64,000 bases of DNA from Erysipelotrichaceae bacterium (GTDB lineage: Bacteria > Bacillota_I > Bacilli_A > RFN20 > CAG-826), in assembly GCA_034932745.1 (NCBI GenBank), contig JAYFOJ010000001.1:69451-133450 (forward strand). Reading direction: 5' to 3'. Each line of letters opens with the position of its first letter. Position 1 is the first letter of the stretch. Below, piece by piece: positions 21,083 to 36,376 of this stretch. Both the position numbers and the translations under genes were made by a program. The notes below the pieces were generated by a model. It saw nothing but the letters and a program-made list of their open reading frames with translations. It was not told the DNA's origin and ran no database searches.

Positions 21083-21971
21083 TTCGATTAAAAAAGTATC
21101 TCTAATTCTGATGGTCGGAGTCTTGTCTTCATGTGGATACAACCTTAAAGAAGTATACGATGGTGATGCATATAACTCACCATTGTTCGGCGAAAATTAC
21201 TATCGAGTTTATGATTCAGATATCGATCCAAATAATCCAAATAATAAAATTAACGAAACTGCCGATATCGAATTAAATAGCGACGCTGATTTAGTTGGCC
21301 TAAAGTATACCGATGCTTGGGGATTAGATACCGCTATTCCTAATACAAATCGCGGAGAAACCGAATACGATCAAGGTAAACTTCATTATTTTGGTTACGA
21401 GTATCCAAAAGATGATCCTAGTTTGATTGGTGTCGGATATGGCCCGACAAGAAGAATGAGCCGTATTGACTCGATTTTCTCTTATGGATACGTATCAAAA
21501 TTATTTGATGGTCAAATGTTTTGTGGTGGCCTTTATGAAAGAGCAAGAGTTCAAATCGACAACACTGGTTTTGGTCGACTTTTTGAAAAAGAGGTAACCG
21601 ATCAGACTGGCGCCTATTTTGCCCTTAATTTAAAAGGCGCTGCGAACAGTATAAGTGGAACAACGGACATTCAAGCACACATGTCAAAGGTAAATCTACA
21701 CATCTCTTTCTTTTTAAGAAACGGCAGTGGATACAAAAAAGTCACCGCATCATATGTGATTAATGAAATGCCGACAAGATACAATGAAATGCCTGATAAT
21801 TATGTATTTTTTACCTTCGCGTTAAATCCAGAAAGAATCGACATCAAAAGATGCGCTGGATTCTCGATTGCATATGATTTATTAGATGATGGAATTTATA
21901 CAGGAAATCCAGATATTCAACACGCTTTGCTTCTATATGAAATGACAATGCCTTTTACTTCTTGGCGCTGA
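21075..21971 (+). CDS. hypothetical lipoprotein
   Basis: Lipobox VLSSC. GAGGTGA SD 6 nt before the ATG at 21075. The track start at 21069 is a TTG. Confidence 0.7.
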   Translation: MHNSIKKVSLILMVGVLSSCGYNLKEVYDGDAYNSPLFGENYYRVYDSDIDPNNPNNKINETADIELNSDADLVGLKYTDAWGLDTAIPNTNRGETEYDQGKLHYFGYEYPKDDPSLIGVGYGPTRRMSRIDSIFSYGYVSKLFDGQMFCGGLYERARVQIDNTGFGRLFEKEVTDQTGAYFALNLKGAANSISGTTDIQAHMSKVNLHISFFLRNGSGYKKVTASYVINEMPTRYNEMPDNYVFFTFALNPERIDIKRCAGFSIAYDLLDDGIYTGNPDIQHALLLYEMTMPFTSWR

Positions 21972-21972
21972 T

Positions 21973-22872
21973 TTATTTTTTGTCGATATCAATTTTAAGC
22001 CATTTACCGATCTCGTTATCGGCTTTTGGGTCATCGAATATAAGAGTTCCTTTAGCGGGGGTAAAAGTCATCTCCGATAAATAAACTTTTCCGTCGATAT
22101 TATACAAATCCACTCTTACGAACGGGAATGGTTTTGCGAGTTTCTCAGCAATCTTCACCATTTCATCCCAATTATCGGGTTTAACTAGTTCCTTACTAGT
22201 TTTTTTCCAGCCATTAAATTGCGCTCCATCAAAAGGAGTCCAATCGATATAGTAATTGTTATAGCGAATGTCGGTTCCTCTACCGGTGACGACATACATA
22301 TATTTAGCGACACCGTTAAAAACATGAATTTTATATTCCGTTGGAGCCTTACCTAAGTATTTTTCAATAATGATTTGCGGTTTGATTTTTGAATAATGCA
22401 TTTCGACGGTTTTCTTACCGTAATTTGTTCTTAACCACCTGCGGAATTTAATTCTTAAAAGTGGGATATCGATGGTGCTCTTATCTAAGCAAATGTAATT
22501 AAACGCACACGCATGGGAACACTTCATAACGAATTGATCAGGTAGTCTTTCAAAATCAATTTCATCAAAACTATCGTAGATTCCATAAATAGGAACTAGG
22601 ATACTTTTTAACTTGTTTTCCGTGACATATTCTCTTACCCCGACTCGACCTGCACATTTCGAAACAAGATCGTTTTTTGGATATGTAAAAAGTCTTAAAT
22701 ACTGAAGTTTTTCAGTGTATTTTGTTGGGTTTTTCAAATTGAGTTCATTATGAGTTATATACTTATACTGGTATTTAACATACCAAATTTTTGAAATTGA
22801 TTTTACAATTCCTCGAAAAGGAGATACCAACGCTCTTTTTAATTTGTTTTCTTTGAGATTTTTGTTAGCCAT
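21973..22872 (-). CDS. TupA-like ATP-grasp protein (surface polysaccharide biosynthesis)
   Basis: N-terminal region (LNLKNPTKYTEKLQYLRLF..EYV) resembles the TupA-like ATP-grasp family. Confidence 0.65.
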   Translation of the reverse strand: MANKNLKENKLKRALVSPFRGIVKSISKIWYVKYQYKYITHNELNLKNPTKYTEKLQYLRLFTYPKNDLVSKCAGRVGVREYVTENKLKSILVPIYGIYDSFDEIDFERLPDQFVMKCSHACAFNYICLDKSTIDIPLLRIKFRRWLRTNYGKKTVEMHYSKIKPQIIIEKYLGKAPTEYKIHVFNGVAKYMYVVTGRGTDIRYNNYYIDWTPFDGAQFNGWKKTSKELVKPDNWDEMVKIAEKLAKPFPFVRVDLYNIDGKVYLSEMTFTPAKGTLIFDDPKADNEIGKWLKIDIDKK

Positions 22873-22922
22873 ATGTTTTTAGTATACATTCTTTTTCTTT
22901 TTGTTGTGATAAACTGTAAAAC

Positions 22923-23300
22923 ATGCCACTAAAGAATGCATTTAAAAACAAAAAGAACTATATATTCGGTGGAATACTATCATTCATCGGTTTTTTACCT
23001 TTCATCATTGAATCAATTCTCAATATTCCAGCTTTAAATAGCGGCGGTGGAGAATGGTATGTTTACGCAACTGGTCTTATTGCGACACTATATTTTTTAA
23101 TTGGCTTTATTTGGGGCGATTTATACTCTGCTAATATTCGTCGTAAAACAAAGAACTGGGATGGTCCGCTGCCAGAAGAAGTTAACACCTCTGCTTGGAA
23201 CAGAAGACTTCCCTGGTGGATGGCGACCGTTCTAGTGGTCATTCTCTTAGTTGTTATATCTTTAATTTTTACTTTTACTGGTCATTACCCATATTGCTAG
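22923..23300 (+). CDS. small hypothetical membrane protein
   Basis: Size 125 aa with 3 hydrophobic helices. Confidence 0.5.
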   Translation: MPLKNAFKNKKNYIFGGILSFIGFLPFIIESILNIPALNSGGGEWYVYATGLIATLYFLIGFIWGDLYSANIRRKTKNWDGPLPEEVNTSAWNRRLPWWMATVLVVILLVVISLIFTFTGHYPYC

Positions 23301-23333
23301 AAAAAGTCACGCTACTTGTAGTTGCGTTCTTGA

Positions 23334-23358
23334 AGAACGCTTTTTTTCTTAATATATG
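23334..23358 (+). terminator. rho-independent terminator
   Basis: Stem gcgttc/gaacgc followed by TTTTTTT. Confidence 0.55.
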
Positions 23359-23474
23359 TTTACATATATTTTTCGCACACGCGTAAATTAGTATTTGATT
23401 TTGAATGGTCATCGTAGTATTTTATTAACAATCATTCAATGATTGATATTTTCGAAGGAAAGGAGAAAAAAAGA

Positions 23475-25859
23475 ATGAAAAAAACTACAAAGGTTTTAGG
23501 TCTTTTGGCTCTCGCTGGCACGTTAGCTGCATGCGGCAACCAAATGAAAACTGGTGTTATTCCTGATAGCGACCCATATTTTCCAGGAAAAGTTGTGAAG
23601 TATGAATACAACTCATTAGTCGCTACTGCTATCACCGAGTTGAACTACCTCAAAACACAAGCAGGTGCTTCCGCAACCCATTTTGCGAACTTTGAAGATG
23701 GACTTCTCTTACATAACAACTTTAGTGTTCTAGAAAAGAATCTCGCTACCAAAGTAACGCAAGTGAACTCTTACAAACAGTTCGACATCGACATTAGGTC
23801 AGGTGTTAAATGGGTTAGTTTTAACGGGGAACAATACGCTCCAGTTGTTAATGGTATTGCCACTCCACAATTCGTGTCTGCTAATGACTTCGTCTCGAGT
23901 GCAAAAGCAATCTTGACGGCGCCAAACGCTTCTGACACAGCGTACTTGATTTACAACTTCGTCGATGGTGCAATCGATTTCTACGAGGCAACATACCTCA
24001 TGGATAAAATTGCTAACGGAGGTTCTGCCTGGGCTCAATATAAGGACAATGCAAAATTTGCCACTAAATTGAACTCTCTCGTCAAAGAGAAAACAGGCAT
24101 CGATCCAAATCACACAGCCGACGAGGTCGACGACATTAAGAACTTTAAACAAGTTGGTATCAAAGTGATAACTGAACCAGGTGCTCAAGGTGGAGGATCG
24201 ATTCGATACACACTTAAGAACAACGCTGTTTATTTCCCAACATTATTAACTTACTCTTGCTATCTTCCAGTGAACGAATATTTCTTAAAGGAAATCAGAT
24301 TCACAAACTTTGGTTCCGCTCCAGACAAATTGCTCTATTGCGGACCATATAGATTGACGAAATCTAGTGAAGTTGAAATCGTTTATGAAAAGAACGAATC
24401 ATATTGGAACTTAGATAAGATTCACGTCGATAGAATTCACTATCAAGTCGCCCCTGCAGATGCAAGTTACGATTATACTCGTACAGAATTTGAACAAGGA
24501 CGTATCGATGGATTTACGATTAGTACAAAGGATACCGAAGGATGGCAAAAATACATTACTGGTCCTCAAGGTACCGGCACTATTCTCAATCCATACAACG
24601 CATATGTTAACTCTCGTGATTACGATTACATCGATTACGTTTACGGTTTAAACGTTAACGTCTATCGTGCTAGTAACACAAGAACTGGCACAGTCTCTGG
24701 CAAATCATATGCCACTACTGGATTTGGTGGTTCTACTGCAACAGTTAAGAACACCGAAAAAGCCCTTCTCATTAAAGAAGTTCGTGACTTAATCATCGCT
24801 TCTTTCGATATTAAGGAATACTGCAAGAGAAACAGTGATTTACCTGAATATCAAGCCCAATACATGATTAATACCTATGTTCCTCGTGGATTCGTTATGG
24901 ACGATAATGGTAACGACTATACAAAGACCCACTACTACGAAGAATATGGTCTTCACAACTTAGATAAATGTGCTAGTGACACCGATCCAACCAAAGTTGA
25001 TTTGAATAAAGTTGACGCAATTATTGGCCAAGGTCAATATGATGGCGTTCAAGTAGCTTACGACGATCTCGCTCCTTTAAGAGACAAGGCAACAGCAGCT
25101 ATTAACGCTTACAACGCCGATAATGCATCTTCTCCAATTACTCTTCCAATTAACCTTGAATTCTATACAATTTGGAACGATGACGAGACAAAAGCTATTG
25201 ATGAACCTCTCATCCTATCGATGAATCAACGCATCAATGGTATGCCAACAACTACAGCATTTACCAAAACCACTCCAAATCTCGTATTCTACGTTATCCC
25301 AACAAGTGATGTTACAACCTCTAACTATGAGACAGTTACTAACAATGGTAACTTCGACATTTGTGACACATGGGGTTGGGGACCAGACTACGGTGATCCA
25401 ATGTCTTATTTGAATACCTATGCAGTAGGCGGAGACTGGAGCAGTATCTTCGGCTTCGTCGGAACTGACTGCCCTAACTATCATTTAGATAACGGAACAT
25501 TGGTTCGCGATGAATCTTTACTCGGTGATTACACCGCAAAAGTTAATGAAGCAAGTAATGAGTATGAGGACCTTAATACTCGTTTCGATTACTTCGCACA
25601 AGCCGAGTACATGCTCATTAACGAATTAGGAATTTATAAACCACTCACCATGCAAGGTCAAGGACGTCAAGTATCTATCTCTTATGCAGCTGGATATGAA
25701 ACTCCACAAGGCGCTTATGGTCTATCGAGCAACCGTCTTGAAGGACTATGGGTAATGGTCGATAACATCCTTAGAACAGATCGTATGAAAGCGATAAAAG
25801 CTTTTGAAGATAACAAAGCAGCTTATGCAGCTGCACACGGTGCTATCAACATTTACTAA
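23475..25859 (+). CDS. oppA: oligopeptide ABC transporter substrate-binding lipoprotein
   Basis: Lipobox LAAC and SD AGGAGAAA. Large (794 aa) solute-binding protein placed upstream of oppBCDF. Confidence 0.8.
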   Translation: MKKTTKVLGLLALAGTLAACGNQMKTGVIPDSDPYFPGKVVKYEYNSLVATAITELNYLKTQAGASATHFANFEDGLLLHNNFSVLEKNLATKVTQVNSYKQFDIDIRSGVKWVSFNGEQYAPVVNGIATPQFVSANDFVSSAKAILTAPNASDTAYLIYNFVDGAIDFYEATYLMDKIANGGSAWAQYKDNAKFATKLNSLVKEKTGIDPNHTADEVDDIKNFKQVGIKVITEPGAQGGGSIRYTLKNNAVYFPTLLTYSCYLPVNEYFLKEIRFTNFGSAPDKLLYCGPYRLTKSSEVEIVYEKNESYWNLDKIHVDRIHYQVAPADASYDYTRTEFEQGRIDGFTISTKDTEGWQKYITGPQGTGTILNPYNAYVNSRDYDYIDYVYGLNVNVYRASNTRTGTVSGKSYATTGFGGSTATVKNTEKALLIKEVRDLIIASFDIKEYCKRNSDLPEYQAQYMINTYVPRGFVMDDNGNDYTKTHYYEEYGLHNLDKCASDTDPTKVDLNKVDAIIGQGQYDGVQVAYDDLAPLRDKATAAINAYNADNASSPITLPINLEFYTIWNDDETKAIDEPLILSMNQRINGMPTTTAFTKTTPNLVFYVIPTSDVTTSNYETVTNNGNFDICDTWGWGPDYGDPMSYLNTYAVGGDWSSIFGFVGTDCPNYHLDNGTLVRDESLLGDYTAKVNEASNEYEDLNTRFDYFAQAEYMLINELGIYKPLTMQGQGRQVSISYAAGYETPQGAYGLSSNRLEGLWVMVDNILRTDRMKAIKAFEDNKAAYAAAHGAINIY

Positions 25860-25890
25860 AAGTAAATAAAATGTTAGATTCATTCAACTC

Positions 25891-25923
25891 ATTAGGGTAG
25901 AGGCCTAACGACCTCTCCCTAAT
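25891..25923 (+). terminator. attenuator/terminator-like hairpin between oppA and oppB
   Basis: Imperfect stem attaggg(t)agagg/cctctccctaat with no strong T-run. It may modulate the oppA to oppBCDF expression ratio. Confidence 0.35.
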
Positions 25924-25947
25924 TTGTTGCATAATAGAGGAGGTAAA

Positions 25948-27120
25948 ATGGAAAGTTATTTAATTGGCTATACAATACTTGGACTTCTAGTATTATTTGT
26001 CATATTCTCGATATTGGTTAAGAAAAGAGTATTGTTTGGAAACACGCCTTCAATGCAGAAAATATTTGCGCATCCACTTCTCCATTATTCTCTAAGAAGA
26101 ATTGGCTCTGCTCTTATTTCTGTCACGCTTGCAATTCTTGTTACCTTCTTCTTAGTTAGATTAGCTCAACCGGCTGATCAAACATGCGTCCTTAAATTCT
26201 CTGGGCCACATGTCACCCCAGAATTATTTGAATTACAATGTAATGCTTGGAAAAAAGAAATGGGCTTCAGCGGCTCAATATTTGAACAATTGTGGCATTT
26301 CTTTTATTCAATCCTTCCATTTCCAAAAACATTATGTCGCGTAAGTCTAGATTCAATCACGTTGACATACACTGTTAGCGACTGCCGTAACTTTATTATC
26401 GATTTAGGTAAGATTTCTGATTTGCCAGGCGTTGAAGACGGAATTTACGTTATCGATTACATGCTCCCAAGAATGGCAATTTCATTCAAGATTGGCTTCA
26501 TCGCCACTTTAGTCGAGCTTGGCCTAGGATATCCACTTGGTGTTTTGATGGCTAAGTATAAAGATGGTGCTTTTGATAAAATCGGTCTTGGATATATTAT
26601 CTCGATCGACGCTATTCCTGGAGTTGCTTACTATTATATATGGATGGCCATTTTGTGTGGCCTTTTAGGCTTGCCAAGAGCATACTCCGAATCTAACTTC
26701 TTAAGCTGGTTGCCAGCGATTCTTACCATGGGCTTTACTGGTATGGCTGGTATTTCGATGTGGGTTAGACGTTTCATGGTCGACGAATTCACTTCAGACT
26801 ACGTAAAATTCGCTCGCGCTAAAGGATTAAGTGAAAATAGAATCATGTTCACTCACGTTTTAAGAAACGCGATTGTCCCACTTGTTAGGTCAATTCCTGC
26901 TGCTGTTATCGGAGCCCTTTTAGGAACATACTTCCTAGAAAATATTTATAGTATTAATGGTATTGGCGCTGCCCTTATTGTTGCCAACAGCACTAAGAAC
27001 GCAATGCTTTTACAAGCAATTATCATCATATCGGCATTCTTGTCGATTATTTCATATTTGTTAGGCGATATTGTCACTGCAATGGTTGACCCACGCGTCA
27101 GCTTTTCAGATGCAGACTAA
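25948..27120 (+). CDS. oppB: oligopeptide ABC transporter permease
   Basis: Binding-protein-dependent permease with an EAA-like loop (ARAKGLSENRIMFTHVLRNA). SD AGAGGAGG upstream. Confidence 0.85.
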   Translation: MESYLIGYTILGLLVLFVIFSILVKKRVLFGNTPSMQKIFAHPLLHYSLRRIGSALISVTLAILVTFFLVRLAQPADQTCVLKFSGPHVTPELFELQCNAWKKEMGFSGSIFEQLWHFFYSILPFPKTLCRVSLDSITLTYTVSDCRNFIIDLGKISDLPGVEDGIYVIDYMLPRMAISFKIGFIATLVELGLGYPLGVLMAKYKDGAFDKIGLGYIISIDAIPGVAYYYIWMAILCGLLGLPRAYSESNFLSWLPAILTMGFTGMAGISMWVRRFMVDEFTSDYVKFARAKGLSENRIMFTHVLRNAIVPLVRSIPAAVIGALLGTYFLENIYSINGIGAALIVANSTKNAMLLQAIIIISAFLSIISYLLGDIVTAMVDPRVSFSDAD

Positions 27121-27131
27121 GGAGGTGCGAC

Positions 27132-28193
27132 ATGGCAAAAGAAGAAAAAGATATCTTTCGCGAAGTAAGCGAAGAGACAGTTCCTGTTGAAGCAACAGTT
27201 GAACAAAATGTTGCTGATTTATTTAAAGTTGTCGGCACCACACCAGAAAACAGTGAAAAGGTCGACAGTGTTCCGTTTTCCTATTGGAGAATGACTTTCA
27301 AAGAATTATTTAAAAAACCATTTGTTATCGTTTGTTTGTTTTTAATTCTTATCGTCGTATTCCTTACTATTTTTGGACCTCTAATTAAGTTTTATCCACC
27401 TGTCATCGGACACGGTATCAACGTTTCGATGGGTGAGAAATTCTACGACCCGCCATATTACTACGGACCAGATGCTGATCACTGGTTTGGTATTTGTGGT
27501 ACTAATATGGGCACTTGGTTTAAAGGCACAGACATGTGGTCTTGTGTGTGGGCCGGCGCTCGTCTATCACTTCTTCTAGGAGTTGTCGTCGCTTTAATCG
27601 ACACAGTTTTAGGTATCGTAATCGGCGCTGCTTGGGGCTACTTTAAATGGCTAGACCCAATTCTAATTGAGTTCAGAAACTTTGTTAATAACATTCCAAC
27701 CCTTTTGCTCGACATTTTATTAATGCAAATGTTGATGAAATATATGTCTCAATACGGTTTTGTGATTATTGTTTTCTTATTATGCGCACTCGGTTGGTTA
27801 GGACTAGCTTCGTTTGTACGTAACCAAATCATTATTATTCGTAATCGCGAATATAATATCGCTTCGCAAACCCTTGGTTCATCTTCGTGGACCATGATTA
27901 GTCATAACCTACTTCCATATCTAATCTCCGTTATTGTTACGGTTGTTTCGACTGCAATTCCAGAAGCTATTTCGGCCGAAGTCGGATTAGCGTACTTCAA
28001 CCTTTCTTTTAAAATTTCAGATGGAGATATAACTCTAGGACAAGTTTTAACCCAGGCGGTCAAAGATAACGCCTGGATGTCACACCCGTATCTACTTTTA
28101 GGACCGATGATAGTGATGGTGCCGTTAACGATAGCATTCTTCTATCTAGGCCTCGCGATTTCGGACGCAACGGATCCGAAATCCCATAGGTAA
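27132..28193 (+). CDS. oppC: oligopeptide ABC transporter permease
   Basis: Second permease of the operon. Polytopic with an OppC-like C-terminal half. Confidence 0.85.
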   Translation: MAKEEKDIFREVSEETVPVEATVEQNVADLFKVVGTTPENSEKVDSVPFSYWRMTFKELFKKPFVIVCLFLILIVVFLTIFGPLIKFYPPVIGHGINVSMGEKFYDPPYYYGPDADHWFGICGTNMGTWFKGTDMWSCVWAGARLSLLLGVVVALIDTVLGIVIGAAWGYFKWLDPILIEFRNFVNNIPTLLLDILLMQMLMKYMSQYGFVIIVFLLCALGWLGLASFVRNQIIIIRNREYNIASQTLGSSSWTMISHNLLPYLISVIVTVVSTAIPEAISAEVGLAYFNLSFKISDGDITLGQVLTQAVKDNAWMSHPYLLLGPMIVMVPLTIAFFYLGLAISDATDPKSHR

Positions 28194-28207
28194 AGGAGGA
28201 TTTGATT

Positions 28208-29575
28208 ATGACATTGAGCAATAAAGATAAAAATGTAGTAATTCAAGTTCGCGACCTTTCACTTGGATTTACCACTCGTGGCAAAAAGATTCATGTCTTA
28301 AGAGACATCTCTCTTGATATTATTGAAGGCGAGACTCTTGCAATCGTTGGAGAATCTGGTTCAGGCAAATCAGTATTTACGAAGGCCTTTACAGGAATGT
28401 TAGACGCCAATGGTTTTATTAGTAGTGGATCAATTATCTTCCACGGTAAAGACTTAGTTAAGTTCAAAGAGAATAAAGAGTGGCTACAGATTCGTGGTCG
28501 TAAAATTGCAACTATCTTCCAAGATCCGATGACATCTTTAAATCCACTATTCACGATTGGATATCAGATTTCCGAAGTTTTAAGACTTCACTCAAAACCG
28601 ACAAAGAAACAATTAGAAAACTTTAAAATACGTAAAAAACAAGAGGATTTAGAAGAAGAATCCAAGATTCAAAAAATGACCAAGGTTCAAAAAACCGAAT
28701 ATCTTCTCAACAAGAAAAAAGAAAAAGAGAATCTTTTCAACACATTGTACGAGAAGGCTTTTAATGATTTAACTGAAAGCGAAAAGAAAAACCCAATAGC
28801 AAGATTTAAACTTCGTCGAGAAGTAGCGGTTGAAACCAAAGATGCTTGGATTGGTAAACCACGCGGAATGTCTCAACACGAAGCTAAAAAAGAAGCCATC
28901 AACCTTCTTCGCAAAGTTCAAATTCCAAATGCTGAAGATCGATATAATGATTACCCATTCCAATATTCTGGTGGTATGAGACAAAGGGTTGTCATCGCTA
29001 TTGCCTTAGCTTGCCGCCCAGAAGTCCTTATTTGTGATGAACCAACAACAGCGTTGGACGTCACTGTCCAATCTCAAATCATCCAACTCATTAAAGAGTT
29101 ACAAAAAGATTACCATTGGACCACTATTTTTATTACGCACGATTTGGGTGTCGTCGCCAATGTCGCCGATCGTATCGCCGTTATGTATGGTGGACAAATT
29201 GTTGAATACGGTACCGCAGAAGATATCTTCTATCGTCCTGCACATCCATATACTTGGGCGCTTTTATCCTCTTTGCCGCAACTAGGCAGTAAAGAAGAGC
29301 CTTTAAGTTTCATCCCAGGTAATCCGCCGTCATTTGCCTCTGAGATTATTGGAGATCCGTTTGCGGATCGTAATAGATATGCTTTGCGCATCGACTTTTT
29401 ATCTAACCCACCAATGTTTAAGATTAGTGAAACTCACTGCGCTAAAACATGGTTGTTAGACCCACGAGCACCACAAGTCGAAAAGCCAAAAGTAATCGTC
29501 GAGCTTCGCGAAAGAATGGCAAAAGCCGCCGATGAATTATTAAGACACGAAGGAGGAAACGCTAATGAAAAGTAG
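28208..29575 (+). CDS. oppD: oligopeptide ABC transporter ATP-binding protein with ~100 aa insertion
   Basis: Walker A (GESGSGKS), signature (YSGGMRQR), Walker B ([11 protein letters not shown]). GGAGGA SD 7 nt before the ATG at 28208. Confidence 0.9.
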
Positions 29576-30581
29576 TAAGAATAAAACTTACGTTCCAAAA
29601 GTGGATGAATTTGCGATTTCTCAACGTGAACACCCAGATAAAGACATCGTCAAAATGAAAGATGTAAAAATATCTTTTAAAATTGGTTCTCAAGAAAGAG
29701 TTATTATCAATCACTTGAACCTCAACATTAAACGCGGAGAGATTCTTGGATTAGTTGGAGAATCAGGATCAGGCAAAACCACTATTGGTCGTGCCATTAT
29801 TAGAATCAATCCTGTTAGAAGCGGTGAGATTCTTTATAACAATGTTCCGATTTCCGGCAAGATATCAAAAGATCGCGAAAGATTGCTTAAAACTAAAGTT
29901 CAGATGATATTTCAAGATCCATCTGCTTCCTTAAACGAAAGAGCAAATATCGACTATGTCATTTCCGAAGGCTTAAGAGCTTATCACCTATACGATTCGG
30001 AAGAGGATCGTATGGCAAAAGTAACCGCTATTTTGGAAAAGGTTGGATTAAGACCAGAATTCCTTTCTCGATATCCACATGAATTCTCTGGTGGTCAAAG
30101 ACAAAGAATCGGCATTGCTCGTTGCATGATTATGAAGCCAGAGTTCGTCATCGCTGACGAACCTATTTCTGCTCTTGATATGTCGATTCGTGCCCAAGTT
30201 CTGAACTTAATTAAGCAGTTCCAAAAAGAAGATAATTTAACTGTTTTATTTATCGCTCACGACTTATCTGTCGTTAAGTATATTTCCGACCGTATTGCAG
30301 TTATTTACGCTGGAAAGCTAGTCGAATTAGCTTCTGCCGAACGTTTATTCCAAGCTGCGCTTCATCCATATACGAAGTCATTGCTTTCTGCAGTTCCAAT
30401 CCCAGATCCACAAATCGAAAAGAAGAAGAAGATTGTTGTTTATGATCCATCTATTCATAACTATACAGAAACCAATGTTCCTGAATTTTTAGAAATAGAA
30501 CCAGGACATTTTGTCAGGGCGAGTAAACAAGAATTTGAAAAATACAAAAAAGAACTTAAAAGATTGGCAGGTGGAAAATAA
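29565..30581 (+). CDS. oppF: oligopeptide ABC transporter ATP-binding protein
   Basis: Walker A (GESGSGKT), signature (FSGGQRQR), Walker B ([10 protein letters not shown]). Confidence 0.9.
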
Positions 30582-32650
30582 TGGCAGAACGAGATAAATA
30601 CGAAATGATGGAAGTTCTTACCAAAGAGCAAGAACAAGAAGCCGAACGCCGCCGTAAAGCAAAGAAAAAGAACTATATTATCGGCCTTTCATTTACTGGT
30701 GTTTTCGCTATCGCCTTGATGGTGATATACGTTTTGTCCGCCAATGTTTGGCTTGTCGATTATGAAAACATGTCTTACATTACTTTCACTTACCCGGCTT
30801 TAGTCGAAGATGGTGAAGAAGTTACAGCGACTATTACTTCGATCAAAACAACAAGTAATTATCCTTCAGAATTTAGAATTCCAAGTCAAATCAACGGATA
30901 TAGAGTAACCGCTATTGGCGACAATGCCTTTGCGGGTTGCAATCGTTTAACCAAGGTTATTATGACCGACAATATTAAAAGTATTGGTTCATATGCCTTT
31001 GCAGGTTGTGAAAATCTTTCTAGCATCACCTTTTCAAAGAACATTGAAACATTAGGTACAAATGCTTTTCAAAATACATATTTCTTTGATCATTTACCTT
31101 CAGATTCCGTTAGCGCTATCCATGGTATTCTCTTCCATGTTGGCGCATCTGTTGTTCCAAATAACACCATTATTTTAGAAAACCATGATTCAGTAGCTCC
31201 TAGTAAATACGCTACTGGATACAACATTATCTATATGGATGACTGGGTCGCGCGCGGTGATTCACAAATTAAGGTTTGGAGCGATGGCTTATTCCTTAAT
31301 ATGGAAGGATTGGTCTATTGCGAGCTCCCAAACATTAAGACATTTACAACTGTTCCAGTAGATACGTTTGAAAATTGCATTAATCTTGAGGGAGTTAGTT
31401 TCCCTGAATCGATCACTAAAGTGGAAGATAGTGCCTTTATGGGCTGCTCGTCTTTAGAAAACATTCAGATCTCAAGTCATATCGAGAATATTGGTAACTA
31501 CGCCTTCGCTTCTTCTGGTGTCGTAAATCCTGTTCTACCAGAAACCTTGGCCACTATTGGTAATGGTGCATTTTCTGGTTGCGAAAATATAACTGAAATC
31601 AATTGGCCAGAAACCCTTACTTCTATTCCTGAAGCCATCTTCGAGAATTGCATTAATCTTACAACCTTTAACTTAACCGACGCATCTTATCAAAATGTTA
31701 AGAATTTAGGCAATAGTGCGTTTAGTAACACCAAACTTACAACTTTCGATATTCCGATGAATGTTTCAACAATTGCTGATTCTTTATTCGCCGATTCGGC
31801 AAGTCTTACGACTGTCCGCGCTTATAAAGGCGAAATTTCATATGATAAACACGGAAATGAAGTGTCGACTGGCGTTGGTCGTATCAATAGAGGCGCCTTT
31901 AATGGGTGTACATCTTTTGATTCCTTGATTCTAATCGATGAAAACCGTCAAGTTCTAACTAATGCTCATGAAGTCAATTTCCCTGTTACATGTCGAAATG
32001 TCGCAGGAGACTTATCAATTTTTGGCAACACAGCGATTACTAAAGTTACGATTCCATCGCAATTGACATCGACTGGTTATTTAATGTTTGCCCATAACGT
32101 AAACTTGACCGAAGTTATCTTCGAAAGCAAGAGAGTTGGTTCAACCCTACAAGGTACGACCAAAATCGAATATCGTTCATTCTACGATTGCCCAAATCTC
32201 ACTACGATTACTCTTCCTGATAGCGTTGTCACTATCGAACAAGGAGCTTTTGAAGACTGCATTAATTTAGAGACGCTCAATCTTCCAATGGGAGATTCAA
32301 CTTATCACGTCGTCCGCTCTGATACCTTTAAAAATCTCGTCAAATTATCTCACTTAGTTCTCTCTCCTGGAGTTAACAAAATCGAAACAGGAGCATTCTA
32401 TGGCAACTACGCTTTAGACTATGTCATTATCCCAACAACCGTTGGTAAAGACCTCGGAATTAACTATCGCGCATTTAATAAATGCCGTCCAACTGGCTCT
32501 TCTAGCAAAATGCCAATCTTCTTAAATGTCGGCATGGATGAAATAAGTGCAGCGAAAGTAATCGATGGTTGGTATGATCCAGATACATGCCAAGTTTATT
32601 GGAAGAATCAATGGAATTATGTGGGTGGAGTTCCTACTCCAATCATTTAG
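30581..32650 (+). CDS. BspA-type leucine-rich-repeat surface protein with N-terminal membrane anchor
   Basis: Repeated IGxxAFxxCxxLxxIxxPxxxxxI units of LRR_5/BspA type. N-terminal TM. TAATG overlap with the oppF stop. Confidence 0.75.
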   Translation: MAERDKYEMMEVLTKEQEQEAERRRKAKKKNYIIGLSFTGVFAIALMVIYVLSANVWLVDYENMSYITFTYPALVEDGEEVTATITSIKTTSNYPSEFRIPSQINGYRVTAIGDNAFAGCNRLTKVIMTDNIKSIGSYAFAGCENLSSITFSKNIETLGTNAFQNTYFFDHLPSDSVSAIHGILFHVGASVVPNNTIILENHDSVAPSKYATGYNIIYMDDWVARGDSQIKVWSDGLFLNMEGLVYCELPNIKTFTTVPVDTFENCINLEGVSFPESITKVEDSAFMGCSSLENIQISSHIENIGNYAFASSGVVNPVLPETLATIGNGAFSGCENITEINWPETLTSIPEAIFENCINLTTFNLTDASYQNVKNLGNSAFSNTKLTTFDIPMNVSTIADSLFADSASLTTVRAYKGEISYDKHGNEVSTGVGRINRGAFNGCTSFDSLILIDENRQVLTNAHEVNFPVTCRNVAGDLSIFGNTAITKVTIPSQLTSTGYLMFAHNVNLTEVIFESKRVGSTLQGTTKIEYRSFYDCPNLTTITLPDSVVTIEQGAFEDCINLETLNLPMGDSTYHVVRSDTFKNLVKLSHLVLSPGVNKIETGAFYGNYALDYVIIPTTVGKDLGINYRAFNKCRPTGSSSKMPIFLNVGMDEISAAKVIDGWYDPDTCQVYWKNQWNYVGGVPTPII

Positions 32651-32663
32651 GAGATATAAGAAT

Positions 32664-33554
32664 ATGAAAAAACTATTTAAATATTTAGCACTTCCGCTTC
32701 TTGTAATCTCTTTAGCGTCTTGTAACGATGTCGAAACTCCATCTAGTGAAGTTCCACTACAAGACAACTGGCTCGAAGAAGACTTATCGACGATGTCTTC
32801 AGTTCTTGGTTCAGGCAATATTATTCCTTTTAGTGGACTATTTGTCCAAGAAGGTAATGAATATGCAGTAGTCGAATATTCTAGCGTCAATAAAGTCGCG
32901 GTGGAGTGTTTGTTACCTACTATTCAATACGACGAAGAGGGACACATTTTCTATAATCCTTTAACAGATGTCGATGCTTATAAGGATTTATGCGTTGAAA
33001 GTGGCTTTACTTTAAATAACTCATTATCAAACATCGATAGCCATGACTTCTATTTATCAAAGAATGTGATAAGCACTGATAATGTCGATAGCGAAATGTG
33101 GCTTAACATTTATTTTACAGATGCTAACTACTTGATCGCTGATGCATGGATTGAAACGACACTAAACGTTAATGTATGGCCTTCTAGAACTAATTTGAAC
33201 GCTTCTTATCAGGGCAATGATAACTTATTATCTATTGCAGAGATGCTCGGAAAATCCGAAAGCGATATCTTCACTCCGGCGATTACTTCCTATAGTTCGA
33301 TTGTTTATCGTGCTACACTCAAGAACAATAATGTTTATGTAAGTTTATTAATAAGCACCGCTAGTAGCGGAGACTTAGATAAATTTGTTGCCGATTTAGG
33401 CAATGCCTCGTTTGCTATCGATAGCAGCAATTCAACTGCTGAACAAGATGACTATTATAACAATGTCACCAAACTCGATTGCTTCATCGATAAAGCCTCC
33501 ACTGATGTCGGTGGCGGAATTCATTCATTTAAAGTAACGTTCATTGCGTATTAA
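32664..33554 (+). CDS. hypothetical lipoprotein
   Basis: Lipobox LASC. AGGAGAT SD upstream of the ATG at 32664. The track start at 32565 is too early. Confidence 0.7.
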   Translation: MKKLFKYLALPLLVISLASCNDVETPSSEVPLQDNWLEEDLSTMSSVLGSGNIIPFSGLFVQEGNEYAVVEYSSVNKVAVECLLPTIQYDEEGHIFYNPLTDVDAYKDLCVESGFTLNNSLSNIDSHDFYLSKNVISTDNVDSEMWLNIYFTDANYLIADAWIETTLNVNVWPSRTNLNASYQGNDNLLSIAEMLGKSESDIFTPAITSYSSIVYRATLKNNNVYVSLLISTASSGDLDKFVADLGNASFAIDSSNSTAEQDDYYNNVTKLDCFIDKASTDVGGGIHSFKVTFIAY

Positions 33555-33571
33555 AATATCCACAAATTAAA

Positions 33572-33597
33572 AGTCTCCAGAAACGGAGACTTTTTTA
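33572..33597. terminator. bidirectional rho-independent terminator
   Basis: Stem gtctcc/ggagac flanked by an A-run and a T-run, between convergent genes. Confidence 0.65.
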
Positions 33598-35118
33598 TTT
33601 TTCTTCTATCTGAATTTCTTTTCTTTTTACGAAAGAAGATACGAGGTTCTCCTTCATTAATAACAATGAGCCGATATATATAATAGCGTCGATTAGAACG
33701 ATAACTATGAGCGCTAATCCTTTTGATAGTTCAGAGTTTACTGGAATACTTCCGCTCCAAAGGGCCGTAATACTAAATTGTGAGTTATTAAGAGCAAGAG
33801 TAACTGCGAGAATTAGAATTGTGGCTAATAACAACTTTAGTGTATTTGCATTAAATAAAGCCTTTGAGGACCATTTCCATGTCTTGATGAGTAAAAATGC
33901 AAGAACTAGAACATCGGTGAAAACAGTGCCTATTGCGACGCCGATAGCGGGGGATAGACCATTATTAGCAAACGCTAATCCTAAAACAATTGATAACGCA
34001 ACATTGACTATTGTTCCTATTAGCATCGCTATTAGATAATATTTCTCTTTTTTCATCGGAATTAGTATTTGCCCATAGATTATGTCGCTTAAAGAGTAAG
34101 TGAGCATCATCGAAGAAAGAATTATCAAAATCATCGGCGCACTTTGATAACCGCTTTCGCCGGAGATTAATGAACAGATGTTATTTGACATTGCAGCCAT
34201 TGTTACTACTGCTGGTAAAACGATGAAAAAGCAGATATTCATCGAATATCTATTCAGATTATTAAAGTACTTCTTGTCTTCCTTGCCATAATAGTAAGTA
34301 CTTCGAGGAATGAAAACAGTCGACAAAGACGCCAAAACACCAATAACGATTTCAATTCCTTTAATACCAACAGCGTAGCTACCTACTTCAACCTTTGTTG
34401 GGTCGATTAGTCCAAGAATAAATGAATCCGTTTGATTGTATAAAGCAAGAATAATCGACAAGGTAAAAAGAATACTTAATGGTTTAATGTATTGTTTATA
34501 GTTATAAGGCATTGTTTTCTTAAAACTAATGTACTTAGTAGCGTAAAGCATGTTTGCGATACTGGTAAAAATTGTTGATCCTGCTGTTATTAAAGCATAA
34601 ATGTAAACGTGATCTTGGTTTTTAACCATTGCGACGATGAGAATCGCAGAAATTGCCAAAATAACAATAGATCTAACCGACATATAAAACTGTTTTTCTA
34701 AAGCGATAAATAGCCATTCAAACGAGAACGCGCCAGCGACAAAGTTAACCGATAATAAAAGAGTAATCGTCGACGCACTTTGAAATACGGGGACTGTTAA
34801 AATGAGACTACATAAGAGAATGAATGATAGAATCGTCGTTATTCCTTGGAGAATAAAGAAAGCTTGAACTTTGTTGGAAAGTTTTTCTTTGTCATCTCTT
34901 ACGGAAACGCATTCTCTTATCGCTAAGTTCGGAATACCGATTTTGGCGAGTATTAGAAAATAATACGCAATGGCATTAGCCCAAGTGTATAGACCTAGTT
35001 GAGCATCGCCTAGAACGCGACACACATAAGGGAACGTCAAAAACGAGAGAAGGGTCAACGCAACCGTTCGAATGATATTAACGACGACATTAGTTCTTAT
35101 GCTATCTTTCATTATCAC
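33595..35118 (-). CDS. polysaccharide biosynthesis protein / Wzx-type flippase (MOP superfamily)
   Basis: Size 507 aa with about 14 TM helices and an N-terminal region typical of oligosaccharide flippases. An alternative ATG start lies at 35112. Confidence 0.8.
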   Translation of the reverse strand: MIMKDSIRTNVVVNIIRTVALTLLSFLTFPYVCRVLGDAQLGLYTWANAIAYYFLILAKIGIPNLAIRECVSVRDDKEKLSNKVQAFFILQGITTILSFILLCSLILTVPVFQSASTITLLLSVNFVAGAFSFEWLFIALEKQFYMSVRSIVILAISAILIVAMVKNQDHVYIYALITAGSTIFTSIANMLYATKYISFKKTMPYNYKQYIKPLSILFTLSIILALYNQTDSFILGLIDPTKVEVGSYAVGIKGIEIVIGVLASLSTVFIPRSTYYYGKEDKKYFNNLNRYSMNICFFIVLPAVVTMAAMSNNICSLISGESGYQSAPMILIILSSMMLTYSLSDIIYGQILIPMKKEKYYLIAMLIGTIVNVALSIVLGLAFANNGLSPAIGVAIGTVFTDVLVLAFLLIKTWKWSSKALFNANTLKLLLATILILAVTLALNNSQFSITALWSGSIPVNSELSKGLALIVIVLIDAIIYIGSLLLMKENLVSSFVKRKEIQIEEK

Positions 35119-35197
35119 CTATTATACTTAACCATTTTTAGTTTTAAAATCGTAAAAAGATACTAGACGTTCTTTTTATTTGCTAGAATTGTGTCAA

Positions 35198-36376
35198 ATG
35201 AAAATTCTTATCGTTTGTCAGTTTTATTATCCAGAGAACTTTGTGATTTACAAAATAGCCGAAACTTTGAAGAGTTTTGGTCATGATGTTCACGTCCTAA
35301 CTGGTAAGCCAAATTACGGATATGGATACATCCTTCCTGAATATAAGCATGTAATCGATGAAGAAATTAATGGAGTTAAAGTCCATCGCGTCAACCTATA
35401 CCCAAGAAAAGATTCTCGAATTTCAATTATTAAGAATTATTTGTCTTTTTGGAAAAATTCGAAGAAATGGGTTAAAAAAACAAAAATTAAATTTGATGTC
35501 GTTTATTCGATGTCTCTTTCTCCAGTGACAATTTTAGCCGCTGGTAATCTATATAAGAAAAAATATGGAGTTCCACATGTTTGCCATTGTGTCGATTTGT
35601 GGCCCGAGTCAGTGCTAGTCACTAACGCTGTAAAAGAAGGTTCATTAGCTTATAGAATTCTTTACCATTGGTCGAAAAAACTATATGAAGGATGCGATCG
35701 AATTTTAGTCGGATCCCCATCTTTTAAAGATTATTTCGTCAATAAACTAAAAATGTCTGGTGAAAACATCGTTTATATTCCTCAACCATCGTTGGTCGAT
35801 GATAGCGAAAGCATTAAGCCGTATAGTCTAGGCGAAGGATTCAATATTCTTTATTGTGGAAACCTTGGAAGAATTCAATTGGTAGAGATGATTCCGAACG
35901 CGATGAAATTAGTAAAGAATCCAGATGTAAGATTTCACGTCATTGGGATGGGACCGATGACTAATGAGTTTTTAAAACGCATTGCGGATTTGAAACTCGC
36001 TAATAAAGTTATTTATCATGGTCCGCTTCCTGCTCAAAAGGCGGCGCCATATTTTAAATCTGCAGATGCTTTATTTGTTTCTTTAAAATCCGAAGGTGTA
36101 GCTGGCAAAACCATTCCCAATAAATTAATTATGTCGATGGCGTTCAGCAAGCCAATTTTAGGAATGTTAGAGGGCGATGGGAAAGATGTTTTAAAGAAAT
36201 CTGGCGGCGCCATATTTGCTGATCAAAACGAACAGTCATTAGCAGAAGCGATTCAGGCCATATCTACGGTTTCTTCCCTTACATTAAAAAAACTCGGCGC
36301 ATTAAACCGAGCTTATTACGAGGACAATTTCGAACTAGAAAAAGTTGTTCGAGAAATCGAAAAATATCTAATCTAA
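35198..36376 (+). CDS. glycosyltransferase family 4
   Basis: GT-B fold with an N-terminal MKILIVCQFYYPE start and a C-terminal GT1-type domain. Confidence 0.8.
   Translation: MKILIVCQFYYPENFVIYKIAETLKSFGHDVHVLTGKPNYGYGYILPEYKHVIDEEINGVKVHRVNLYPRKDSRISIIKNYLSFWKNSKKWVKKTKIKFDVVYSMSLSPVTILAAGNLYKKKYGVPHVCHCVDLWPESVLVTNAVKEGSLAYRILYHWSKKLYEGCDRILVGSPSFKDYFVNKLKMSGENIVYIPQPSLVDDSESIKPYSLGEGFNILYCGNLGRIQLVEMIPNAMKLVKNPDVRFHVIGMGPMTNEFLKRIADLKLANKVIYHGPLPAQKAAPYFKSADALFVSLKSEGVAGKTIPNKLIMSMAFSKPILGMLEGDGKDVLKKSGGAIFADQNEQSLAEAIQAISTVSSLTLKKLGALNRAYYEDNFELEKVVREIEKYLI

What the first reader, a model, noticed from the sequence alone, without database searches (positions are those of the whole stretch)
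23475..33554. opp operon extended by a translationally coupled BspA-type LRR surface protein and a lipoprotein
The operon runs oppA (794 aa lipoprotein), oppB, oppC, oppD and oppF. The oppF stop then overlaps (TAATG at 30579-30583) the start of a 689-aa membrane-anchored protein built almost entirely of BspA-type leucine-rich repeats. An SD-equipped lipoprotein gene follows, and then a bidirectional terminator. A putative adhesin or host-interaction LRR protein co-transcribed and coupled with a peptide importer is unusual. An imperfect hairpin between oppA and oppB (25891-25923) may set the oppA excess. A perfect 7-bp palindrome (AATCATT c AATGATT, about 23429-23445) lies 30 nt upstream of oppA near a CodY-box-like ATTTTCGAA.
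Basis: partly seen in the sequence, partly recalled or inferred. Interest (0 to 1): 0.5.

Follow-up and report, generated by a model that had tools for sequence, protein, structure and literature searches.

The report
Peptide-importer operon with conserved LRR surface gene
In a clade of uncultured small-genome Bacilli, the oligopeptide ABC-importer operon always carries a sixth, tightly overlapping gene for a membrane-anchored leucine-rich-repeat surface protein, which suggests, but does not prove, that this binding protein works with the importer.

Summary
The operon runs oppA (lipoprotein), a hairpin, oppBCDF, a 689-aa LRR gene and a 296-aa lipoprotein gene, and ends at a bidirectional terminator. 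The LRR gene overlaps the oppF stop (TAATG).

- **LRR protein:** it matches Pfam LRR_5 (E 5.8e-86). It has an N-terminal signal-anchor helix followed by an LRR solenoid (AF2 pLDDT 89).
- **Conservation:** an orthologous LRR gene follows oppF in all 24 related species-level genomes, in 5 of 5 reverse look-ups and in 8 of 8 metagenome loci. Its start lies -34 to +4 nt from the oppF stop. In 23 of the 24 a recognisable Shine-Dalgarno sequence sits in oppF's last codons.
- **Phylogeny and selection:** on an OppC+OppF tree the LRR-bearing loci are monophyletic. The sister clade and about 50 other Firmicutes opp loci lack the gene. dN/dS is 0.06, the same as OppA.
- **Lipoprotein:** this is a recent addition restricted to a subclade.
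- **oppA-oppB hairpin:** it is conserved in every relative examined.
- **Upstream palindrome:** it is conserved as CAATC-N(4-8)-GATTG just downstream of the -10 box. That fits a 5'-terminal mRNA hairpin better than an operator.
- **CodY-box idea:** not supported.

The function is inferred. I favour a surface binding module that acts with Opp, over an independent adhesin. I class it as a new variant of a known kind, of moderate interest.

The parts
23324..23340 (+). Terminator of the upstream 125-aa membrane-protein gene; sets the 5' boundary of the opp unit
   Evidence: GCGTTCTTGAAGAACGC followed by TTTTTTT (sequence)
23395..23423 (+). Probable promoter: -35 TTGATT (23395-23400), 17-nt spacer, -10 TATTTT (23418-23423)
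   Evidence: Read. The geometry (-10, then 5 nt, then CAATC) matches the clear TTGnnn-17-(TGn)TATATT promoters of relatives L007, L008, L011, L020, L024, L030 and L061. The scan tool proposed a different, non-conserved pair. Inferred, not mapped.
23429..23445 (+). Conserved inverted repeat CAATCATTcAATGATTG; proposed 5'-terminal hairpin of the opp mRNA leader
   Evidence: An exact palindrome. CAATC-N4-8-GATTG lies at the same place in 11 relatives, and the TAATC..GATTA variant lies there in L006 and L021. Within the clade's ~20-kb loci it occurs essentially only upstream of oppA.
23475..25859 (+). oppA: 794-aa substrate-binding lipoprotein (lipobox LAAC)
   Evidence: Pfam SBP_bac_5 E 3.2e-14. 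Best NCBIfam hit is the Mycoplasma-type OppA model MMSYN1_0169, below its cutoff.
25891..25923 (+). Intercistronic GC-rich hairpin with a TTTGTTG tail (partial terminator or 3' stabiliser after oppA)
   Evidence: Fold of the spacer gives dG -20.6, z -2.8. An equivalent hairpin with a T-rich tail sits in the oppA-oppB spacer of all 20 relatives folded.
25948..27120 (+). oppB permease (390 aa)
   Evidence: BPD_transp_1 E 4e-29; NCBIfam MMSYN1_0165 OppB is the best hit
27132..28193 (+). oppC permease (353 aa)
   Evidence: OppC_N plus BPD_transp_1; NCBIfam MMSYN1_0166 is the best hit
28208..29575 (+). oppD ATPase (455 aa from the ATG; TTG at 28202 is an alternative start), with an insertion of roughly 85 aa
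   Evidence: ABC_tran plus oligo_HPY. tblastn splits it into residues ~1-137 and ~221-457 in most relatives. NCBIfam MMSYN1_0167 is the best hit.
29565..30581 (+). oppF ATPase (338 aa); overlaps oppD by 11 nt. Its last codons (GGTGGA, 30570-30575) serve as the SD for the next gene.
   Evidence: ABC_tran plus oligo_HPY; junction sequences
30581..32650 (+). LRR gene: 689-aa type-II membrane protein. Basic cytoplasmic N-terminus, TM helix at about residues 32-57, juxtamembrane motif WLVDYENMSYITFTY, then an LRR_5 solenoid of about 620 aa.
   Evidence: LRR_5 E 5.8e-86. AF2 pLDDT 89 with a helix at 15-64 followed by a solenoid. Foldseek best hits are LRR_5 structures 4gt6, 4fs7, 4h09 and 6mlx. Orthologs share the anchor and the motif.
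32664..33554 (+). 296-aa lipoprotein (lipobox LASC) of unknown function; a subclade-specific addition
33569..33594 (.). Bidirectional intrinsic terminator shared with the convergent flippase gene (33595-35118, minus strand)
   Evidence: 10-bp stem AAAAGTCTCC/GGAGACTTTT with T-runs on both strands

Best explanation
**Transcription unit.** This is one unit. A sigma-70-type promoter is followed by a short leader that begins with a small conserved hairpin just before the SD. Then come oppA, a conserved GC-rich hairpin that probably terminates or stabilises part of the transcripts (giving excess OppA), oppB, oppC, oppD, oppF, the LRR gene and, in this subclade only, a lipoprotein gene. A bidirectional terminator closes the unit.

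**The LRR protein.** It is inserted N-in/C-out by a signal-anchor helix and displays a BspA/TpLRR-type solenoid of about 620 residues on the cell surface. Its translation is coupled to that of OppF: the stop and start overlap, and its SD lies in oppF's last codons. The gene entered this position once, in the ancestor of a clade of uncultured small-genome Bacilli. It has been kept there under purifying selection as strong as that on OppA.

**Inferred mechanism.** The LRR protein is a dedicated surface binding module made in a fixed ratio with the Opp permease, and it acts in the same process. Most likely it holds proteinaceous material, or a partner protein, at the membrane next to the importer so that peptides reach OppA.

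**What is shown and what is inferred.** Shown: gene order, overlap, domain content, predicted topology and fold, conservation, monophyly and purifying selection. Inferred: co-transcription, the role of the hairpins, and any functional link to peptide uptake. The confidence given (0.45) refers to the inferred functional link; the architecture and its conservation I hold at about 0.9.
For: - **Architecture and domains:**
- **Position conserved:** an LRR ortholog lies directly after oppF in 24 of 24 GTDB species genomes of the clade. Its start is -34 to +4 nt from the oppF stop, and 23 of the 24 have a GGAGG, GGTGG or related SD 5-9 nt upstream, inside oppF (L012 shows none).
- **Converse test:** 5 of 5 full-length orthologs found by protein search (P0003, P0017, P0028, P0031, P0079) and 8 of 8 metagenome loci sit behind oppF. 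A generic LRR_5 protein (P0025) does not.
- **Phylogeny:** LRR-bearing loci are monophyletic on an OppC+OppF NJ tree, with an LRR-less sister clade.
- **Selection:** dN/dS against an 85%-identical relative is 0.058 for the LRR gene, 0.058 for the OppA C-terminal half, and 0.02-0.03 for OppB-F.
- **Orthology:** orthologs share the basic N-terminus, the TM helix and the juxtamembrane motif. There is no paralog in the window.
- **Structure:** AF2 and Foldseek support an anchored LRR_5 solenoid.
- **Precedent:** HupY/LrrG of streptococci is an LRR adhesin that binds heme and supports heme-iron use (PMC6593403).
- **Habitats:** record titles include a lake water column and an anaerobic digester.
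- **General knowledge:** overlapping, translationally coupled genes usually encode proteins that act together.
Against: - No expression or binding data exist. Co-transcription is inferred only from overlap and conservation.
- The whole neighbourhood is syntenic in this clade: TupA-like ATP-grasp gene, 125-aa membrane protein, opp, LRR, flippase, glycosyltransferases. Conserved adjacency alone therefore proves little.
- Ortholog length ranges from about 600 to 930 aa through extra C-terminal repeats. This is more typical of adhesins than of a fixed transporter subunit.
- Residues conserved at 90% or more are almost all LRR scaffold positions (F, L, G, I, P). No conserved ligand-binding face was identified.
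- No large clade-specific domain in OppA, OppB or OppC accompanies the gain of the LRR gene.
- All characterised LRR_5 proteins are adhesins or host-interaction factors.
- dS is close to saturation, so the dN/dS values are rough.
Confidence: 0.45

Rival explanations
1. The LRR protein is an independent surface adhesin or cell-cell and host-interaction factor. It sits at the end of the opp operon only to borrow a strong, nutrient-regulated promoter, and it plays no part in transport.
For: - Family membership is LRR_5, and the nearest solved structures are cell-surface proteins, TpLRR and the pneumococcal adhesin PcpA.
- There is a weak NCBIfam hit to the adhesin HupY/LrrG.
- Repeat number varies among orthologs.
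- Only scaffold residues are strongly conserved.
- BspA-like proteins of mollicutes are discussed as host-interaction factors (PMC4206474).
Against: - The gene has kept the same coupled position in every genome sampled across a clade as deep as 59% OppF identity.
- The window holds a single copy and no expanded variable family.
- dN/dS equals that of OppA.
- Some clade members appear to come from non-host habitats, judging from record titles.
Confidence: 0.35
2. The LRR protein serves the cell envelope rather than nutrition. For example, it could organise or bind the surface polysaccharide made by the adjacent flippase and glycosyltransferase cluster. Its link to opp would then be positional only.
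For: The convergent Polysacc_synt flippase and the glycosyltransferases are conserved neighbours in nearly all loci. A TupA-like ATP-grasp gene lies upstream.
Against: - The LRR gene lies on the opp strand and overlaps oppF.
- It is separated from the flippase gene by a convergent terminator.
- LRR_5 domains are known as protein-binding modules, not glycan-binding ones.
Confidence: 0.1
3. The association has no functional meaning. It is a frozen accident of gene order in slowly rearranging small genomes, and the LRR gene may be transcribed from an internal promoter within oppF.
For: General synteny of the region is high. Promoter-like hexamers occur throughout this AT-rich sequence.
Against: - Promoter-like sites in the region are no more frequent than in shuffled sequence: 24 found against 31 +/- 6 expected.
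- Stop/start overlap or near-abutment is preserved in 24 of 24 loci, and an SD encoded in oppF in 23 of 24. That is hard to maintain without selection.
- The neighbouring lipoprotein slot is variable, whereas the LRR slot is not.
Confidence: 0.05

Closest known systems
Opp/Dpp-type (PepT family, TC 3.A.1.5) ABC importers, especially the Mollicutes-type Opp (NCBIfam models MMSYN1_0165-0169 of Mycoplasma mycoides)
   Same: It has five canonical components: an SBP_bac_5 lipoprotein, two BPD_transp_1 permeases (one with OppC_N) and two ATPases with the oligo_HPY tail. It also has a large OppA and an insertion in OppD, and every component's best NCBIfam hit is the Mycoplasma model.
   Different: Scores fall below all equivalog cutoffs. 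Gene order here is oppA-B-C-D-F. I found no described Opp operon with a sixth, coupled LRR gene (literature searches; 50+ other Firmicutes loci).
BspA (Tannerella forsythia), TpLRR (Treponema pallidum) and LrrA-type LRR_5 surface proteins
   Same: The repeat family is the same (Pfam LRR_5, 285 bits). The predicted solenoid matches LRR_5 crystal structures, including TpLRR 6mlx.
   Different: It is anchored by an N-terminal signal-anchor helix rather than a lipid, a C-terminal domain or cell-wall anchoring. Pfam detected no extra domains. It is embedded in a transporter operon. Its binding partners are unknown.
HupY/LrrG of Streptococcus pyogenes and S. agalactiae
   Same: HupY is an LRR surface protein that serves both as an adhesin and as a nutrient (heme) capture factor feeding an uptake pathway (PMC6593403). 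It is the nearest named NCBIfam model.
   Different: The hit is only 91 bits against a cutoff of 1250, so this protein is not an ortholog. HupY is cell-wall associated, iron-regulated and not encoded inside an ABC importer operon.
Intercistronic stem-loops after the binding-protein gene of ABC importer operons (for example malE-malF and hisJ-hisQ in enterobacteria, and opp/dpp operons of Gram-positives); this comparison rests on my own knowledge
   Same: A GC-rich hairpin with a U-rich tail follows the binding-protein gene, is conserved in all relatives, and fits differential expression of OppA over the membrane components.
   Different: Its sequence is unrelated to REP elements. Its effect on transcript ratios has not been measured.

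Membership tests
Opp/Dpp-type ABC importer (PepT family) | Cluster-C substrate-binding protein (Pfam SBP_bac_5) | tested here: met
   OppA residues 87-351 match SBP_bac_5: E 3.2e-14, 53 bits against a cutoff of 32
Opp/Dpp-type ABC importer (PepT family) | Two BPD_transp_1 permeases (one with OppC_N) and two ATPases with the oligo_HPY C-terminal region | tested here: met
   All four proteins match above the gathering scores
Opp/Dpp-type ABC importer (PepT family) | Oligopeptides are the transported substrate | not testable with these tools
   Relatives in this family also carry nickel, opines, glutathione or sugars. Only the naming of the best NCBIfam hits (OppA-F) supports peptides.
Mycoplasma-type Opp equivalogs (NCBIfam MMSYN1_0165-0169) | Score above the curated equivalog cutoff | tested here: not met
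   These are the best hits for all five proteins, but all fall below cutoff: OppA 143/650, OppB 240/350, OppC 294/370, OppD 581/740, OppF 420/800
BspA/TpLRR-type LRR proteins (Pfam LRR_5, PF13306) | LRR_5 repeats above the gathering score | tested here: met
   285 bits against a cutoff of 27.7, in 5 stretches spanning the ectodomain
BspA/TpLRR-type LRR proteins (Pfam LRR_5, PF13306) | LRR solenoid fold similar to solved LRR_5 structures | tested here: met
   AF2 pLDDT 89, pTM 0.79. Foldseek probability 1.0 to 4gt6, 4fs7, 4h09 and 6mlx. phmmer E 3.8e-36 to 4fs7.
BspA/TpLRR-type LRR proteins (Pfam LRR_5, PF13306) | Cell-surface exposure | tested here: inconclusive
   A basic N-terminus followed by one hydrophobic helix (positive-inside rule) and a continuous predicted helix at 15-64 imply N-in/C-out. 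No experimental topology exists.
BspA/TpLRR-type LRR proteins (Pfam LRR_5, PF13306) | Adhesion to host, matrix or other cells | not testable with these tools
HupY/LrrG adhesin (NCBIfam NF047961) | Equivalog score | tested here: not met
   91 bits against a cutoff of 1250
Bacterial lipoproteins | Signal peptide ending in a lipobox [LVI][ASTVI][GAS]C | tested here: met
   OppA ...LAGTLAAC and the 296-aa protein ...VISLASC, read directly. Orthologous OppAs keep a lipobox.
CodY-regulated promoters | Match to AATTTTCWGAAAATT with 3 or fewer mismatches near the promoter | tested here: not met
   No match within 3 mismatches near oppA. The window has 7 matches against 17.9 expected by chance.
Dimeric-repressor operator | Fixed spacing between conserved half-sites | tested here: not met
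   The spacing between CAATC and GATTG varies from 4 to 8 nt (16 nt in L021) among relatives
5'-terminal mRNA stabiliser hairpin | Stem-loop at or within a few nt of the transcription start, upstream of the SD, maintained through sequence change | tested here: inconclusive
   The hairpin starts 5-6 nt after the conserved -10 box and ends 2-4 nt before the SD in relatives; in the window the gap to the SD is about 14-16 nt. Two pairs change on both sides (C-G to T-A in L006 and L021; A-T to T-A). L012, L013 and L023 have different hairpins at the same place. The stems are weak (-3 to -8 kcal/mol), the transcription start is not mapped, and a palindromic DNA site would show the same symmetry.

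The most novel reading that the evidence does not exclude
The LRR protein is a true sixth, extracellular component of an Opp-type ABC importer. It would act as a membrane-anchored capture antenna that binds polypeptides, or docks a protease or OppA itself, and hands peptides to the transporter. No such accessory class has been described for ABC importers.
Probability: 0.25. Interest if true: 0.7.

Novelty: new variant of a known kind. Interest (0 to 1): 0.45.

Why it matters
Opp systems are the main route by which amino-acid-auxotrophic, small-genome Firmicutes and Mollicutes feed, and they are thought to need only five proteins. BspA-type LRR proteins are very abundant in gut microbes, yet almost none has a known partner or role. 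An LRR gene locked by translational coupling to oppF across a whole clade gives a concrete, testable hypothesis for one LRR_5 subfamily: it works in nutrient capture at the membrane. If it holds, it would add an accessory component to a textbook transporter. If it fails, the locus still shows how a surface protein can be stably tied to a nutrient-regulated operon. It also provides two conserved RNA elements (a 5' hairpin and an intercistronic hairpin) for studying expression ratios in uncultured Bacilli.

Tried and rejected
- **CodY box:** a consensus scan found nothing near oppA and fewer window hits than chance. Rejected.
- **Rfam:** a permissive-threshold scan of 22800-33800 gave only a sub-threshold Phe_leader hit lying on the terminator (E 0.46, 27 bits against a gathering score of 55). 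I treat it as chance.
- **Palindrome as a dimer operator:** rejected as the leading reading because the half-site spacing varies. Not excluded.
- **Promoter proposed by the scan tool** (TTAACA 23425 ... TATTTT 23452, with the palindrome in its spacer): not conserved in relatives. I prefer the upstream pair.
- **Internal terminator-like sites** in oppF (30143-30162) and at the start of the LRR gene (30705-30727): weak tails inside coding sequence, judged to be chance.
- **A clade-specific domain or large indel in OppA, OppB or OppC that could dock the LRR protein:** only small indels and ordinary clade-specific substitutions were found. Uninformative.
- **Literature:** searches for an LRR-opp linkage returned nothing relevant.
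- **Second copy:** no second LRR_5 gene exists in the window.
- **Formal covariation count on the leader:** not run. MAFFT split the outer pair across gap columns, so I report the pair changes by eye only.


Full report
**1.

- oppA starts at ATG 23475, preceded by GGAG at 23462-23465. It begins MKKTTKVLGLLALAGTLAAC (lipobox) and encodes 794 aa, ending at 25859.
- The remaining transporter genes are oppB (25948-27120), oppC (27132-28193), oppD (ATG 28208 or TTG 28202, to 29575) and oppF (29565-30581, overlapping oppD by 11 nt).
- The oppF stop TAA (30579-30581) shares its last A with the ATG (30581-30583) of a 689-aa ORF that ends at 32650.
- Thirteen nucleotides later, with AGGAG overlapping that stop codon, a 296-aa ORF starts at 32664. 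Its signal peptide ends in the lipobox LASC, and it runs to 33554.
- A 10-bp stem flanked by A- and T-runs (33569-33594) lies between this gene and the convergent flippase gene at 33595-35118.
- The imperfect hairpin sits exactly at 25891-25923, and the palindrome CAATCATTcAATGATTG at 23429-23445.

Pfam confirms the canonical Opp domain set. The 689-aa protein scores 285 bits (E 5.8e-86) against LRR_5. The window is ordinary chromosome: it also carries GdpP, DnaB, tmRNA, PcrA, LigA and GatA. The same locus occurs in two public read-set assemblies.

**2. What the LRR protein is.**

- Its N-terminus is hydrophilic and ends in RRRKAKKK. One hydrophobic helix follows (about residues 32-57), and then the repeats.
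- AlphaFold2 with 37 orthologs gives pLDDT 89 and pTM 0.79, with a continuous helix at 15-64 and a solenoid from 67 to 689.
- By sequence and by fold, the nearest solved structures are LRR_5 proteins of gut bacteria from structural-genomics projects (4fs7, 4gt6, 4h09). Next come TpLRR (6mlx) and the pneumococcal adhesin PcpA.
- The long basic N-region and the absence of a plausible signal-peptidase site argue for a signal anchor, giving an N-in/C-out type-II surface protein. This topology is inferred, not demonstrated.

**3. Conservation is the main new result.**

*Genome scan.* A scan of one genome per GTDB species with OppF returned 80 loci. tblastn with all window proteins shows an LRR ortholog (27-45% identity) directly downstream of oppF in L003-L024, L030 and L061, a total of 24 genomes labelled uncultured Bacilli or Erysipelotrichaceae. 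None is present in Lactobacillales, Enterococcus, Lachnospiraceae, Anaeroplasmataceae or Bacillaceae loci.

*The junction.* In all 24 the LRR start lies between -34 and +4 nt of the last base of the oppF stop. Ten loci share the window's 1-nt overlap: nine as ..AAATAATG and one (L014) as TGATG. In 23 of the 24, a GGAGG, GGTGG or related SD lies 5-9 nt upstream, encoded by oppF's last codons; L012 shows none.

*Phylogeny.* On a neighbour-joining tree of OppC+OppF the LRR-bearing loci form one clade. Its sister group (L025-L029, L031) has the same long OppA, but oppF is followed by feoAB or by an unrelated Lys/Glu-rich membrane protein. L026 falls in this group, but its contig ends about 80 nt after oppF, so its status cannot be read.

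*Converse test.* Five full-length orthologs recovered by protein search (P0003, P0017, P0028, P0031, P0079) all sit behind oppF. So do all eight metagenome loci found through the cytoplasmic juxtamembrane motif. A generic 1173-aa LRR_5 protein does not.

*Shared features and selection.* All orthologs share the basic N-terminus, the TM helix and the motif W-L-x-D-Y-x-N-M-x-Y-I-x-F-x-Y just outside the membrane. Against a relative with 85% identical LRR protein, dN/dS is 0.058 for the LRR gene. The C-terminal half of oppA gives the same value, and oppB-F give 0.02-0.03. dS is about 1-1.6, close to saturation, so these ratios are rough.

**4. The lipoprotein.**

- The lipoprotein has no Pfam or NCBIfam match.
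- An exhaustive HMMER search of 1.84 billion representatives finds only 14 relatives.
- Among the collected loci it follows the LRR gene only in the nearest subclade: the window, L088, L092, L003 and L004. Elsewhere the LRR stop is followed directly by the convergent flippase gene.
- It is therefore a recent add-on, not part of the conserved unit.

**5. RNA and regulatory elements.**

*oppA-oppB hairpin.* The spacer contains a GC-rich hairpin followed by a T-rich tail in all 20 relatives folded, including the LRR-less sister clade (z from -1.7 to -6.5).

*Upstream palindrome.* It is conserved too, as CAATC-N(4-8)-GATTG in 11 relatives. L006 and L021 have TAATC...GATTA, with both arms changed. 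Four features argue for a small 5'-terminal mRNA hairpin (a stabiliser or RBS-context element) rather than a fixed-spacing dimer operator:
- The gap between the half-sites varies.
- L012, L013 and L023 have different hairpins at the same place.
- In relatives the element begins 5-6 nt after a clear TTGnnn-17-(TGn)TATATT promoter.
- In relatives it ends 2-4 nt before the SD; in the window the gap is about 14-16 nt.

The window fits the same promoter geometry, with TTGATT (23395-23400) and TATTTT (23418-23423). The evidence is not decisive: the stems are weak, the transcription start is unmapped, and a palindromic DNA site would keep the same symmetry. Within the clade's loci the motif occurs essentially only at oppA.

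*CodY and Rfam.* The CodY-like box fails. There is no match within 3 mismatches of the consensus near oppA, and the window has fewer matches than chance. Rfam finds nothing in the region.

**6. How it most likely works.**

*What is shown.* A five-gene Opp importer of the Mollicutes type is present; every component's best NCBIfam hit is the Mycoplasma mycoides Opp model, though below cutoff. It carries a sixth gene that has stayed translationally coupled to oppF since a single acquisition, and that gene evolves under the same constraint as OppA.

*What I infer.* The LRR protein is made in a fixed proportion to the permease and acts in the same process. It would work as a surface protein-binding module that keeps proteinaceous substrate, or a partner protein, next to the importer.

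*Indirect support.*
- Coupled overlapping genes usually encode proteins that act together.
- The LRR slot is stable, whereas the adjacent lipoprotein slot is not.
- Record titles suggest some clade members come from a lake water column and an anaerobic digester, which weakens a purely host-directed role.
- HupY/LrrG is an LRR adhesin that also binds heme and supports heme-iron acquisition (PMC6593403).

*Against.*
- The whole region is syntenic in this clade, including the functionally unrelated flippase and TupA-like genes.
- Ortholog length varies from about 600 to 930 aa through extra repeats.
- Only scaffold residues are strongly conserved.
- No clade-specific docking domain appears in OppA, OppB or OppC.
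- All characterised family members are adhesins.

I give the accessory reading about 0.45 and the independent-adhesin reading 0.35. An envelope role gets 0.1 and a meaningless adjacency 0.05.

**7. Comparison with known systems, and novelty.**

The transporter is an ordinary member of the Opp/Dpp family. The LRR protein is a member of Pfam LRR_5, but it is not an ortholog of BspA or of HupY/LrrG (91 bits against a cutoff of 1250). Full-text searches for LRR or BspA together with opp operons found no description of this arrangement. I class it as a new variant of a known kind: a known importer operon with a conserved, coupled LRR surface gene. Interest is moderate at 0.45. The genomic pattern is clean and gives a testable role for one subfamily of a large, poorly understood protein family, but the functional claim rests on context alone.

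Noticed in passing
L009 (JBAZDT010000023.1) and L014 (JBAZDT010000057.1): Two contigs of the same MAG each carry an opp operon followed by an LRR ortholog. The N-termini are related but clearly diverged. Either the whole opp-LRR unit was duplicated, or two related strains were binned together (coverage is about 1x).
   Followed up: no
window 28208-29575 (OppD residues ~137-221): OppD carries an insertion of roughly 85 aa, rich in Lys and Glu, between the two halves of the ATPase domain. tblastn splits there in most relatives, and called OppD lengths vary (372-457 aa). The best NCBIfam hit is the Mycoplasma OppD model, which also has a long insert.
   Followed up: partly
window 22923-23300: A 125-aa predicted membrane protein with no Pfam or NCBIfam family lies directly upstream of opp. 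It is conserved at that position across the LRR-bearing clade (25-50% identity). A terminator (23324-23340) separates it from oppA.
   Followed up: partly
window 19727-21971: Two overlapping ORFs without any Pfam family: a 451-aa polytopic membrane protein (19727-21082) and a 300-aa protein whose N-terminus looks like a lipoprotein signal (...GVLSSCGY; 21069-21971). They lie next to a TupA-like ATP-grasp gene (21973-22872, minus strand).
   Followed up: no
window 21973-22872 and 33595-38625; L083, L087, L090: The opp-LRR unit is embedded in a conserved surface-polysaccharide neighbourhood: a TupA-like ATP-grasp gene upstream, and a convergent Polysacc_synt flippase plus three or four glycosyltransferases downstream. 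This synteny extends across the clade.
   Followed up: partly
P0132: A 614-aa protein matches residues 90-151 of the 296-aa lipoprotein in five separate stretches. That segment therefore seems to be a repeatable module of about 60 aa.
   Followed up: no
window 8050-8445: A tmRNA gene with the tag peptide DNSYMSANRAQVCCAA. The double-Cys tag is unusual but was not examined.
   Followed up: no
window 8558-12936: Two large overlapping genes. One (773 aa) combines a TMEM164-family membrane domain with an ABC ATPase domain. The other (686 aa) has only a weak ABC_tran_2 match. This is an atypical ABC architecture.
   Followed up: no
L025, L029, L031 (downstream of oppF): In the LRR-less sister clade, oppF is followed either by feoA-feoB or by a membrane protein of about 590 aa with a long Lys/Glu-rich tail. 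A gene of the second type recurs further downstream in L025 and L031.
   Followed up: no
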